Of a DNA stretch of 64,000 nt, positions 39,159-40,204 are shown one piece after another. The position numbers and the translations under genes were made by a program. The number at the start of each line of letters is the position of its first letter. Positions within the stretch are counted from its first letter, which is position 1. Location: positions 64,001-128,000 of IMG/VR virus record IMGVR_UViG_3300031420_000003. One strand, written 5' to 3'. The notes beneath the pieces were generated by a model that had not been told where the DNA came from, ran no database searches, and was given only the letters and a program-made list of their open reading frames with translations. The DNA comes from a virus.

Positions 39159-39548
39159 ATGACGATATCACTTAAAGAGATAAGTGCCCGTCTTGACCGA
39201 GTCCAAGCAGCAACCGGTGGGTCTGTAGATGGGCAGGTGAACGCCAAAGTTCACAATGCTAACCTACTGGCTGGTCAGCCTGATACGTGGGCCCGTTGTA
39301 ACGGGTCGTGCAGTTGGACGTGTTCATCGGGGTGTAGTCATGGTTGCTCTAGCTGCTCAGGTAGCTGTAGCGGCGTGTGTACAGGTAACTGTTCGGGTTC
39401 GTGTTCTGGTGGTTGTGGGGGAGGATGTTCATCCTCGTGTTCTGGTGGGTGCTCTAGCGGGTGTTCGGGGACTTGCGGTGCAAGCTGTTCAAGTGGCTGT
39501 GCCGGTACCTGTAGCAGCAACTGCACATCAGGCTGCAGCAGCCCTTAG
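39159..39548 (+). CDS. CXXX-repeat Cys/Ser/Gly-rich peptide A, putative radical-SAM target
   Basis: 46-aa leader-like region then 21 Cys in CXXX spacing (one CXX); AAGGAAAGG RBS. Confidence 0.85.
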   Translation: MTISLKEISARLDRVQAATGGSVDGQVNAKVHNANLLAGQPDTWARCNGSCSWTCSSGCSHGCSSCSGSCSGVCTGNCSGSCSGGCGGGCSSSCSGGCSSGCSGTCGASCSSGCAGTCSSNCTSGCSSP

Positions 39549-39556
39549 GAGCAGAG

Positions 39557-39985
39557 ATGGCGATTTCATTAAAAACGGTGCAGGCTCGTGTTCAGAACAT
39601 TGAGAACACTGCACTTAAAACTGAAGCAGGCGTGCAAAACTACATTGCAGGCCGCACTACCAATAATGCTGATTTACTCAACGGCTTCACACCGGCGGCA
39701 CTGCACTGTAATGGCTCTTGTAGCTGGACGTGCGGTAACGGATGTTCCGGTGGCTGTACGGGTAACTGTTCGTCAGGATGTTCTTCATCATGTTCGGGCA
39801 ACTGCTCATCAAGCTGTACAGGCGGTTGTACTGGCAGCTGTGGCGGTAACTGCGGGGGCGGCTGCTCCGGTGGATGTTCTGGTACTTGCTCGGGTAACTG
39901 TTCAGGGAAATGTTCTGGCGGGTGCTCAGGAAGTTGTGGTGCGAGCTGTGGCGGAAGTTGTGGAGCAGGCTGTTCTGGACCGTAG
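39557..39985 (+). CDS. CXXX-repeat Cys/Ser/Gly-rich peptide B, putative radical-SAM target
   Basis: 50-aa leader-like region then 23 perfect CXXX units; AGGAG RBS. Confidence 0.85.
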   Translation: MAISLKTVQARVQNIENTALKTEAGVQNYIAGRTTNNADLLNGFTPAALHCNGSCSWTCGNGCSGGCTGNCSSGCSSSCSGNCSSSCTGGCTGSCGGNCGGGCSGGCSGTCSGNCSGKCSGGCSGSCGASCGGSCGAGCSGP

Positions 39986-39994
39986 GAGTAGGCT

Positions 39995-40204
39995 ATGGCA
40001 GTAAGCTTGAAAGACATCGGTAACCGCGTCTCGAACGTCGAACGCTATATCACCACGGGCCAAGCGGTTGACTATATTGCCAACCGGGGAACGTGTAACA
40101 ACACCAACAACTTGGGTGGGATTCGTGCTGGCGCGTATAACTGCGGCGGAACCTGTAGCTGGAGTAGCTCAGGCGGGGCGAAATCAGTCACCTTCCCGAG
40201 TTAA
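39995..40204 (+). CDS. short paralog C of the CXXX peptides
   Basis: Same MAVSLK..R...E leader and NNTNNLGG motif; core only CGGTCSWS; AGGAG RBS. Confidence 0.75.
   Translation: MAVSLKDIGNRVSNVERYITTGQAVDYIANRGTCNNTNNLGGIRAGAYNCGGTCSWSSSGGAKSVTFPS

What the first reader, a model, noticed from the sequence alone, without database searches (positions are those of the whole stretch)
39159..40204. The peptide leaders look like tail-fibre building blocks, not classical RiPP leaders
Seen: A, B and C start MTISLKEISARLDRVQ / MAISLKTVQARVQNIE / MAVSLKDIGNRVSNVE, a heptad-like amphipathic helix. They carry HNANLLAG / NNADLLNG / NNTNNLGG 6-7 residues before the core-start Cys. Known: (D/N)AxxLxG motifs such as NADKLDG are common in trimeric phage fibre shafts. 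The large fibres here contain related A.D....G.T segments (IAFDSALAFGRT, AADTFLTYGKT, AVDATRAFGRT). Inference: the leader may be retained and trimerise, possibly as an A/B/C heterotrimer, docking the Cys-rich core onto the coiled-coil fibre encoded at 37896..39095.
Basis: partly seen in the sequence, partly recalled or inferred. Interest (0 to 1): 0.75.

Follow-up and report, generated by a model that had tools for sequence, protein, structure and literature searches.

The report
Cysteine-ladder trimer in phage tail module
Three small cysteine-rich proteins encoded among the tail-fibre genes of a giant Erwinia phage look less like disposable antibiotic precursors and more like a three-chain structural piece that neighbouring radical SAM enzymes may chemically staple.

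Summary
The quoted sequences are all present. A (39159-39548), B (39557-39985) and C (39995-40204) are real genes under purifying selection. They are kept as a fixed A-B-C triad in 14 of 14 related jumbo-phage loci and in SPN3US, where they are unannotated or called in the wrong frame.

The ~50-residue N-terminal region has a conserved hydrophobic pattern over its whole length. A, B and C form three separate, ancient groups.

A second, unrelated family of CXXX-repeat proteins carries a ~105-residue N-domain. It sits beside genuine TIGR04115 radical SAM enzymes among tail or virion genes of at least three other phage types. This is the strongest support for a structural rather than classical RiPP reading.

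Several parts are not supported or not tested:
- The leader profile does not match this phage's own fibres.
- Docking on the 401-aa fibre was not tested.
- Leader retention and virion presence are not shown.
- The chemistry of the modification is inferred.

The parts
37890..39095 (+). 401-aa coiled-coil fibre-type protein (TTG start). It shares its N-terminal domain with the three large fibre ORFs upstream and is a candidate docking partner (untested).
   Evidence: phrog_2163 'virion structural protein', E 1.3e-99. Coiled-coil family hits over residues ~225-385. Present upstream of A in 13 of 13 related loci.
39105..39138 (+). Stable stem-loop between the fibre gene and gene A.
   Evidence: MFE -26.5 kcal/mol for 39090-39160, z -5.48, 0 of 200 shuffles as good.
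39159..39548 (+). Protein A, 129 aa. Residues 1-46 are the N-domain ('leader'); residues 47-129 are a CxGxCSW junction plus a CXXX-repeat tail. 21 Cys.
   Evidence: phrog_6085 E 8.2e-28. TIGR04114 24.9 bits, cut-off 20. 21 Cys in 14 of 14 orthologues. N-domain dN/dS 0.07 against L004.
39557..39985 (+). Protein B, 142 aa. Residues 1-50 are the N-domain; residues 51-142 are the junction plus a CXXX-repeat tail. 23 Cys.
   Evidence: phrog_6085 E 1.2e-34. TIGR04114 25.2 bits. Orthologues in 14 of 14 loci carry 20-23 Cys. Tail dN/dS 0.06.
39995..40204 (+). Protein C, 69 aa. It has the same N-domain (1-49) and junction motif but no long CXXX tail. 3 Cys.
   Evidence: phrog_6085 E 1.3e-24. Orthologues in 14 of 14 loci are 68-69 aa by the starts used here (72 aa from an upstream TTG in some loci) with 2-4 Cys. 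dN/dS 0.09.
40217..41143 (+). 308-aa protein of unknown function and unmatched fold.
   Evidence: phrog_8030. AF2 pLDDT 84.1. No Foldseek match at E<=1e-3. Best VIA Z 4.6. Conserved in 13 of 13 loci.
41127..42011 (+). 294-aa radical SAM enzyme with no N-terminal RRE.
   Evidence: PF04055 E 1.5e-14. Best solved relative is SkfB, aligned from its residue 103. Conserved in 13 of 13 loci.
42024..43421 (+). 465-aa radical SAM/SPASM-type enzyme, a distant relative of the CXXX-repeat maturase family.
   Evidence: Best NCBIfam hit TIGR04115, 113.7 bits, below the cut-off of 350; PapB family 102.3 bits. Best solved relative is CteB, aligned from its residue 105. Conserved in 13 of 13 loci.
43381..43929 (+). 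182-aa protein of unknown function.
   Evidence: phrog_7988. Conserved in 13 of 13 loci.
43908..44549 (+). 213-aa protein with a DUF4376 domain; last gene of the cassette.
   Evidence: PF14301 E 2e-06. Conserved in 13 of 13 loci.
44554..44571 (+). Terminator-like hairpin followed by a T-rich run, closing the cassette.
   Evidence: 7-bp stem with 6 GC pairs, then CTTTCTTCTT.

Best explanation
A, B and C are subunits of a small fibre-like structural module of the tail apparatus, not precursors of a released peptide. Their ~50-residue N-terminal regions fold together as a parallel three-chain domain, most simply one A, one B and one C. This domain consists of a short N-terminal coiled coil followed by a layer built around the conserved T-x-N-N-x-(D/N)-x-(L/F)-x-G motif. 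It brings the three CxGxCSW junctions into register. The domain is retained, and it may also serve as the handle by which the modifying enzymes hold their substrate. The long CXXX-repeat tails of A and B, and the short Cys knot of C, are the substrates of the adjacent SPASM-type radical SAM enzyme, perhaps with the second radical SAM enzyme. These enzymes install thioether-type cross-links that turn a floppy Gly/Ser/Cys chain into a stiff, protease-resistant filament. Shown here: the genes are real and conserved; the triad is ancient; the setting is the fibre module; other phage lineages have an analogous arrangement; a trimer is predicted. Inferred: retention of the N-domain, presence in the virion, the stoichiometry, and the chemistry of the modification.
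For: 1. The A-B-C triad occurs in the same order in 14 of 14 loci (the window plus 13 IMG/VR jumbo-phage loci) and in SPN3US. A has 21 Cys in 14 of 14 loci. The fibre-A-B-C-p308-rSAM-rSAM-p182-DUF4376 cassette is conserved in 13 of 13 loci.
2. In a maximum-likelihood tree the A, B and C N-domains form three separate groups (one change each; support 97/88, 89/90 and 94/94). dN/dS is 0.06-0.09 wherever dS is not saturated.
3. Conserved hydrophobic positions run along the whole N-domain, not only a short recognition motif.
4. Complex prediction of A(1-60), B(1-64) and C(1-69) gave a score of 0.75, with the best of 3 controls at 0.02. That mark was reached by 58 of 80 solved complexes and 2 of 110 mismatched pairs. 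The runs share at least 77% of contacts and the partner pLDDT is at least 70. Contacts are in register over residues 3-50 and are tightest at the NN motif. B alone folds poorly (pLDDT 41).
5. A leader-profile search of 1.84 billion proteins gave 26 hits. Twenty-four are short proteins matched over most or all of the profile; the 10 I read all carry the C-x-x-x-C-(S/V)-(W/F) junction. The two others are a phage fibrous protein with 9 tandem repeats that match leader positions 5-32 (E 3.6e-5) and an RTX protein.
6. A C-type variant with a ~140-residue C-terminal extension is real: its cluster has 9 members on contigs up to 225 kb.
7. A second CXXX-repeat family has a ~105-residue N-domain. Of 24 metagenome loci of at least 8 kb, 22 have a related rSAM next to the CXXX gene. 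Four of 4 such rSAMs tested exceed the TIGR04115 cut-off. The neighbouring genes are tape measure, tail and tail-fibre genes (L025), baseplate J (L060) and a Bacillus-podophage virion protein (L030).
8. Neither rSAM has room for an N-terminal RRE. No cassette protein hit a peptidase or transporter family.
Against: 1. There is no direct evidence that A, B or C are in the virion or that the N-domain is kept.
2. A 46-50-residue leader, several precursor paralogues and a disordered Cys-rich core are all normal for RiPPs. The enzymes belong to RiPP-type maturase families.
3. The complex model 'supports binding; it does not show it'. My own alignments and three chains differ from the tool's calibration. 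Close paralogues can pass in place of the true partner, so ABC cannot be told apart from A3, B3 or C3.
4. The leader HMM does not match the window's own fibres.
5. None of the 42 leaders hit a fibre-repeat Pfam family at E<=10.
6. No solved structure matches by sequence; the best E-value is 0.83.
7. Each repeat of the fibrous hit scores only 3-14 bits, with high compositional bias.
8. The N-domain of the second family is not detectably homologous to this one (hhalign probability 0.25%). The analogy therefore rests on architecture and gene context, not ancestry.
9. The cores lack Asp and Glu, so PapB-type chemistry cannot simply be transferred.
Confidence: 0.5

Rival explanations
1. This is a classical phage-encoded RiPP. 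The ~50-residue N-terminus is a leader that recruits the radical SAM enzymes, directly or through p308 or p182. It is then cleaved off by a host or unidentified protease, and the thioether-bridged Cys-rich cores are released at lysis as free peptides, for example metal-binding, antimicrobial or anti-defence peptides.
For: The A and B cores exceed the TIGR04114 cut-off, and the best family for the 465-aa enzyme is TIGR04115, followed by PapB. The closest solved enzymes are the thioether-forming CteB and SkfB. The core is predicted to be disordered. The leader length and the presence of several precursor paralogues are typical of RiPPs (established knowledge).
Against: The cassette contains no peptidase, exporter or RRE. 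The copy number and the Cys count are fixed across 14 loci. C has almost no core yet is kept in 14 of 14 loci. The extreme N-terminus and the whole N-domain are conserved. A trimer is predicted. The position is inside the fibre module here, and beside tail or virion genes in other phage lineages, where the 'leader' is ~105 residues long or even C-terminal.
Confidence: 0.25
2. A, B and C are non-virion helper proteins of fibre assembly. They could be a trimeric template or chaperone, or Cys-rich metal or Fe-S carriers that serve the two radical SAM enzymes, whose real substrate would be another fibre protein.
For: The cassette ends with a DUF4376 protein, and a DUF1353 'tail assembly chaperone' gene lies further downstream, after the endolysin gene. 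CxxxC-rich sequences could bind metals (inference). The N-domain trimer prediction would also suit a templating role.
Against: The Cys-repeat tails match the curated radical SAM target repeat. In the second family the CXXX gene and the rSAM are immediate neighbours in 22 of 24 long loci, which is the usual signature of a substrate-enzyme pair. No other Cys-rich candidate substrate was seen in the fibre ORFs.
Confidence: 0.12
3. The resemblance to fibre building blocks is coincidental. The N-terminus is just an amphipathic helix plus a linker, and the predicted trimer is a modelling artefact of three similar helical peptides.
For: The window's fibres give no profile match. There are no Pfam fibre-repeat hits. 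ESM Atlas scores of 0.79-0.84 lie in the range that shuffled proteins reach a third of the time. The monomer model is poor.
Against: The controls scored 0.00-0.02 against 0.75. Conservation covers 50 residues. Three orthologous groups have been kept for a long time. Gene context in other phage lineages points the same way.
Confidence: 0.08

Closest known systems
NCBIfam CXXX-repeat radical SAM system (TIGR04114 target repeat, TIGR04115 maturase, TIGR04117 Syntroph_Cxxx)
   Same: The Cys-every-fourth-residue tails of A and B exceed the TIGR04114 cut-off, and the adjacent SPASM-type rSAM has TIGR04115 as its best family. Genuine TIGR04115 enzymes (4 of 4 tested above the cut-off) also sit next to CXXX-repeat proteins, beside phage tail or virion genes.
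   Different: The phage enzyme scores 113.7 bits against a cut-off of 350, so it is a distant relative. The window has three target paralogues with their own ~50-residue N-domain, a second rSAM and three extra unknown proteins. It lacks the ~95-120-aa partner protein found next to the genuine TIGR04115 genes. I found no experimental work on this family.
PapA/PapB (freyrasin) ranthipeptide system
   Same: It has a SPASM radical SAM enzyme that makes repeated small thioether rings on a Cys-X3 repeat (recalled; the PapB family is the second-best NCBIfam hit at 102.3 bits; for PMC12373016 I saw only the search listing).
   Different: The PapB acceptor is an Asp or Glu side chain, and the A and B cores contain neither. 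The score is below the PapB cut-off of 340. PapA is a short secreted-type precursor, not a triad in a fibre operon.
SCIFF/CteB and SkfA/SkfB sactipeptide-type maturases
   Same: They are the closest solved structures by sequence: CteB at E 2.5e-15 for the 465-aa enzyme and SkfB at E 1.7e-5 for the 294-aa enzyme.
   Different: The alignments start at CteB residue 105 and SkfB residue 103, so the N-terminal leader-binding (RRE) domain of those enzymes is absent here.
Trimeric phage fibre shafts built from coiled-coil repeats (for example T4 fibritin, recalled; and the 654-aa fibrous protein P0024 found here)
   Same: They share a heptad-patterned helix followed by a (G/A)-Y-(I/Q)-T-x-x-Q-(A/V) segment. 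P0024 carries 9 tandem copies that match leader positions 5-32. A parallel in-register three-chain model is predicted.
   Different: The N-domain is a single ~50-residue unit, not a long shaft. The match is statistically weak for each repeat. No solved structure matches by sequence. The resemblance to fibritin is recalled and was not tested.

Membership tests
NCBIfam CXXX-repeat rSAM target system (TIGR04114/TIGR04115) | The target protein carries the CXXX repeat at or above the TIGR04114 cut-off (20 bits). | tested here: met
   A 24.9 bits and B 25.2 bits. C had no hit.
NCBIfam CXXX-repeat rSAM target system (TIGR04114/TIGR04115) | The adjacent maturase scores at or above the TIGR04115 cut-off (350 bits). 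| tested here: not met
   113.7 bits, though this is its best-scoring family. The metagenomic phage-module enzymes score 354-491 bits.
Classical leader-dependent RiPP | A RiPP recognition element (RRE) is present in the maturase or in a partner protein. | tested here: inconclusive
   Both rSAMs align to CteB and SkfB only from residues 105 and 103, so there is no N-terminal RRE. p308 has no recognisable fold. p182 was not modelled.
Classical leader-dependent RiPP | A leader peptidase and/or an exporter is encoded with the precursor. | tested here: not met
   No cassette protein hit a peptidase or transporter family in Pfam, NCBIfam or PHROGs. A host protease cannot be excluded.
Classical leader-dependent RiPP | The leader is removed from the mature product. 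| not testable with these tools
   This needs mass spectrometry of infected cells or virions.
Ranthipeptide (PapB type) | A Cys-X3-Asp/Glu acceptor motif is present in the core. | tested here: not met
   There is no Asp or Glu in A residues 47-129 or B residues 51-142.
Trimeric phage fibre or fibre-associated protein | The gene lies within the tail-fibre or baseplate gene module. | tested here: met
   It lies between four paralogous fibre-type ORFs (phrog_7557, 8078, 7449, 2163) and, downstream, DUF4376, endolysin and tail-assembly-chaperone genes. The arrangement is conserved in 13 of 13 loci.
Trimeric phage fibre or fibre-associated protein | The protein forms a parallel trimer. | tested here: inconclusive
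   Prediction only: 0.75 against a best control of 0.02. This supports binding but does not show it, and it cannot separate hetero- from homotrimers.
Trimeric phage fibre or fibre-associated protein | The protein is present in the purified virion. | not testable with these tools
   In SPN3US, A and C are unannotated and B is annotated in the wrong frame. If the published virion proteomics was searched against the annotated gene set, which I did not check, it could not have reported them. The supplementary tables of PMC5694885 were closed.
Trimeric phage fibre or fibre-associated protein | Sequence similarity to known fibre repeats. | tested here: inconclusive
   One fibrous phage protein matched with 9 weak repeats (E 3.6e-5). 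None of 42 leaders hit a Pfam fibre repeat. The window's own fibres gave no match.

The most novel reading that the evidence does not exclude
CXXX-repeat 'RiPP' systems, including the curated TIGR04115 family, may in fact be maturation systems for phage tail-fibre proteins. In this reading a radical SAM enzyme staples a Cys-every-fourth-residue chain into a covalently laddered filament, which is displayed on a trimeric N-terminal stalk. In SPN3US-like jumbo phages the stalk would be an obligate A:B:C heterotrimer. As far as I can tell, this would be the first virion fibre whose stiffness comes from enzyme-installed thioether cross-links.
Probability: 0.35. Interest if true: 0.9.

Novelty: new variant of a known kind. 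Interest (0 to 1): 0.78.

Why it matters
If the reading holds, a whole bioinformatic class of 'radical SAM-modified peptides' would have to be re-read as phage structural proteins. Radical SAM chemistry would be added to the ways in which viruses harden their host-recognition organelles. It would also explain why two radical SAM genes are conserved in the tail region of all SPN3US-like giant phages. The idea can be tested directly, because SPN3US has an amber-mutant genetic system and established virion proteomics. The finding also exposes a systematic annotation gap: A, B and C are missing, truncated or called on the wrong strand or frame in the reference records of Kwan and SPN3US.

Tried and rejected
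- A word-index homologue search with B residues 1-52 found no candidate. The profile search without a word index then found the family.
- A genome-contig scan with the rSAM alignment returned only 4 distant Saccharibacteria loci, none with a Cys-repeat ORF. This was uninformative.
- p308 gave a confident AF2 model, but Foldseek PDB found no match at E<=1e-3 and the VIA wide search reached at most Z 4.6. A PDB profile search also found nothing. There is therefore no evidence that p308 is a protease or an RRE protein, and none against it.
- The ESM Atlas search with C gave leads at 0.79-0.84 (phage tail repeat and head fibre clusters). This is inside the noise range and was not backed by Pfam: 0 of 42 leaders hit PF12789. 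I rejected it as evidence.
- The Atlas search and the PDB search on the C-terminal extension of P0004 found nothing useful.
- The extensions of P0004 and P0016 were not found in IMG/VR.
- The CXXX protein of L025 has no tblastn match in the phage collection. The neighbour tested from L058 also had none.
- hhalign of the second family's N-domain against the leader gave a probability of 0.25%. The small partner protein has no relative in the window at E<=10. A common origin of the two N-domains is therefore rejected for now.
- The RTX protein P0019 matched the leader profile through five identical repeats. I treat this as spurious.
- Literature searches found nothing on CXXX repeats or on radical SAM enzymes acting on phage fibres. 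For PMC5105663, PMC5694885, PMC12801897 and PMC10288494 I read only the passages returned by 'find'. All other papers I saw only as search listings.
Supplementary Table 1 of PMC5694885, the full SPN3US virion protein list, may bear on gp161-gp167.
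Full report
WHAT IS THERE

The window is bases 64001-128000 of a 248,416-bp virus record with direct terminal repeats. Over 37800-43500 it is 91.4% identical in DNA to Erwinia phages Kwan and Wellington.

At the given coordinates there are three small + strand ORFs, each preceded by a Shine-Dalgarno-like purine run:
- A, 39159-39548, 129 aa.
- B, 39557-39985, 142 aa.
- C, 39995-40204, 69 aa.

Each motif ends 7 residues before the junction cysteine. All three proteins match one phage family of unknown function, phrog_6085 (E 8e-28, 1e-34 and 1e-24). 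The Cys-rich tails of A and B exceed the cut-off of the NCBIfam repeat model TIGR04114, 'Cys-rich repeat-containing protein' (24.9 and 25.2 bits against 20). C has only the junction motif.

THE GENES ARE REAL AND THE TRIAD IS FIXED

- A scan of IMG/VR gave 13 related loci on contigs of 151-246 kb.
- All 13, plus the window, carry A, B and C in that order.
- A has 21 Cys in 14 of 14 loci, B has 20-23 Cys, and C has 2-4.
- Against locus L004, dN/dS is 0.07 (A N-domain), 0.06 (B tail) and 0.09 (both halves of C). dS was saturated in the other two segments.
- In a maximum-likelihood tree of the 42 N-domains, A, B and C each form one group (support 97/88, 89/90 and 94/94). The triplication therefore predates the divergence of these phages, and every lineage has kept one copy of each.
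- The whole cassette is present in 13 of 13 loci: 401-aa fibre, A, B, C, 308-aa unknown, 294-aa rSAM, 465-aa rSAM, 182-aa unknown and the DUF4376 protein.
- The cassette is bounded by a strong hairpin at 39105-39138 (z -5.5) and a terminator-like site at 44554-44571.

Reference annotations miss these genes.
- In Kwan, A is truncated, an ORF is called on the opposite strand across most of B, and only C is called correctly.
- In SPN3US, A and C are not annotated, and 'gp166' is the wrong frame of B.

THE N-TERMINAL REGION

In the alignment of 42 N-domains, large hydrophobic residues fill columns 3, 5, 8, 12 and 15 in 98-100% of rows. Further conserved hydrophobic positions follow at columns 20, 30, 42 and 50. 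The constraint therefore covers the whole ~50 residues and the extreme N-terminus.

B alone gives a poor AlphaFold model (pLDDT 41.1; low-confidence helices at 5-19 and 23-37; tail disordered).

A complex prediction of A(1-60), B(1-64) and C(1-69), each with its 14-row alignment, gave these results:
- Score 0.75, with the best of 3 controls at 0.02.
- That mark was reached by 58 of 80 solved complexes and 2 of 110 mismatched pairs.
- The runs agree in at least 77% of contacts and the partner pLDDT is at least 70.
- Contacts run in register over residues 3-50. They are tightest at A31-36, B34-38 and C32-38, which is the T-x-N-N motif.

The tool states that this supports binding but does not show it. 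My own alignments and the three-chain set-up lie outside its calibration. Paralogues can substitute for the true partner, so an ABC heterotrimer is not distinguished from homotrimers.

DOES THE LEADER LOOK LIKE A FIBRE BUILDING BLOCK?

I searched a profile of the 42 N-domains against 1.84 billion representative proteins and obtained 26 hits at E<=1e-3.
- Twenty-four are short proteins (32-210 aa) matched over most or all of the profile. I read 10 of them, and all carry the C-x-x-x-C-(S/V)-(W/F) junction.
- The two outsiders are a 654-aa protein and an RTX protein.
- The 654-aa protein has phage head-decoration and fibre-type PHROG hits. It carries nine tandem repeats that each match leader positions ~5-32 (E 3.6e-5 overall; 3-14 bits per repeat).
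- The RTX protein I regard as spurious.

Several results count against it:
- The leader HMM finds nothing in this phage's own fibres (583 ORFs searched; only A, B and C significant).
- The pattern [DN]A..L.G is absent from the four fibre ORFs.
- None of the 42 leaders hit a Pfam fibre repeat at E<=10.
- No solved structure matches by sequence.

THE STRONGEST NEW EVIDENCE: A SECOND CXXX FAMILY NEXT TO PHAGE TAIL AND VIRION GENES

Searching with the Cys-rich tail of A found 19 proteins.
- Most are 190-225 aa. Of the 15 aligned, 13 combine a conserved ~105-residue N-terminal domain with a CXXX-repeat tail. In P0131, and in P0118 (read), the order is reversed.
- Two others have a twin-arginine-signal-like N-terminus and weakly match TIGR04117.

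A metagenome scan with the second family returned 49 loci.
- A profile of the phage 465-aa rSAM finds a relative in 31 of the 49 loci.
- Of the 24 loci of at least 8 kb, 22 have this rSAM next to the CXXX gene. The other two contigs end at the CXXX gene.
- Four of 4 such enzymes tested score 354-491 bits on TIGR04115, whose cut-off is 350. They are genuine members of the curated 'CXXX-repeat target' maturase family.

Their neighbours are phage tail or virion genes:
- In L025 the order is tape measure, tail protein, tail fibre, CXXX protein, small partner, rSAM, tail fibre/host specificity. Locus L021 shares all of these genes by BLAST, L022 all but the small partner, and L028 all those up to the rSAM.
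- In L060 a baseplate-J homologue of Clostridium myophages lies upstream.
- In L030 a virion structural protein of Bacillus phages Page and Pookie lies upstream.
- A deposited 'Bacteriophage sp.' scaffold has the same CXXX / small partner / rSAM trio.
- One neighbour tested from L058 had no phage match.

The second family's N-domain is not detectably related to the jumbo-phage leader. The parallel is one of architecture: a non-Cys domain too large for a conventional leader, a CXXX tail, an adjacent rSAM and, where neighbours could be identified, phage tail or virion genes.

A C-type variant in another jumbo-phage lineage carries a ~140-residue C-terminal extension after the junction. Its cluster has 9 members on contigs up to 225 kb. 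This again treats the 'leader' as the N-terminal domain of a protein.

THE ENZYMES

- The 465-aa enzyme has TIGR04115 as its best family but scores far below the cut-off (113.7 bits). The PapB family comes next.
- By sequence its closest solved relative is CteB, aligned from CteB residue 105. For the 294-aa enzyme the closest is SkfB, aligned from residue 103. Neither has the N-terminal leader-binding domain of those enzymes.
- No cassette protein hit a peptidase or transporter family.
- p308 folds confidently but matches no known fold.
- The cores contain no Asp or Glu, so PapB-type Cys-to-acid linkage cannot simply be assumed. Thioether formation onto backbone or Ser/Thr/Gly carbons is an inference from family membership.

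VIRION EVIDENCE

- Passages of the SPN3US papers describe gp168, gp169 and gp170 as baseplate or tail-fibre candidates detected in virions. In the passages searched they do not mention gp163, gp165, gp166 or gp167; gp164 was not among my search terms (PMC5105663, PMC5694885).
- A and C are unannotated there and B is in the wrong frame. If that proteomics was searched against the annotated gene set, which I did not check, it could not have reported them.
- The full virion list is in a supplement that I could not open.

READING

- The best-supported account (about 0.5) is that A, B and C form a trimeric, probably heteromeric, fibre-module component. Its N-domain is structural and retained, and its Cys ladders are cross-linked by the adjacent radical SAM enzyme or enzymes.
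- The classical cleaved-leader RiPP remains a serious rival (about 0.25).
- A non-virion assembly or cofactor role (about 0.12) and coincidence or artefact (about 0.08) follow.
Trimerisation and the fibre-module role gain support. The similarity to this phage's own fibres does not. Docking and retention remain open.

PRIOR KNOWLEDGE

Seven literature searches found no paper on CXXX-repeat proteins or on radical SAM maturation of phage fibres. The library lacks most subscription journals, so this is not proof of absence.

Earlier notes of this scan on the same window raised several points: the RiPP-like cluster, the absence of an RRE, the DUF4376 link and the TNG.LD.F C-terminal tags. I checked the DUF4376 hit, the terminator, the tags and, partly, the RRE point.

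Noticed in passing
L001 (Kwan) 13457-14405; L019 (SPN3US) 4094-5123: The reference records mis-annotate the triad. In Kwan, A is truncated (gp184), an ORF is called on the opposite strand across most of B (gp183), and only C (gp182) is correct. In SPN3US, A and C are unannotated and gp166 is the wrong frame of B.
   Followed up: yes
window 46801-47322 (+), 49337-50776 (-), 52759-54177 (-): Three ORFs in a region of virion structural genes end with the same C-terminal tag, TNG(D/K)LD(G/D)F. It loosely resembles the TNNADLLNGF segment of B. It could be a docking peptide.
   Followed up: partly
window 39105-39138: A very stable stem-loop lies between the 401-aa fibre gene and gene A (-26.5 kcal/mol, z -5.5), followed by a partly U-rich run. 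It may be an attenuator or an RNA-stabilising element. Its conservation was not examined.
   Followed up: partly
L039 5578-7977: In one metagenomic phage locus the TIGR04115-type rSAM gene is interrupted exactly inside its CxxxCxxC motif by an intein-like insert with LAGLIDADG-type blocks. The downstream Cys would be both the +1 extein residue and the third cluster ligand. An in-frame stop separates the two ORFs.
   Followed up: partly
window 40217-41143: The 308-aa protein gives a confident AlphaFold model (pLDDT 84, pTM 0.79), but no PDB match was found by Foldseek or by the wide VIA search (best Z 4.6). It may have a new fold, and it is conserved in all related cassettes.
   Followed up: partly
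L021-L069 (for example L025 8617-8922, L030 9164-9442): A conserved ~93-120-aa protein with an E-R-(L/K)-(W/F)-Y-E motif lies immediately upstream of the genuine TIGR04115 rSAM. It matches no NCBIfam model and has no relative in the window. It is a candidate substrate-presenting partner.
   Followed up: partly
P0118, P0131 (proteins): In some members of the second CXXX family the domain order is reversed, with the CXXX repeats at the N-terminus and the non-Cys domain at the C-terminus.
   Followed up: no
L060 8004-9326; L041 8004-9419: Some CXXX-repeat proteins of the second family are very long (441-472 aa) and have 61-68 consecutive CXXX units.
   Followed up: no
window 24969-39095: Four consecutive fibre-type ORFs (1220, 1344, 1695 and 401 aa) share an N-terminal domain (phrog_2163). 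They correspond to the SPN3US gp167-gp170 paralogue set.
   Followed up: partly
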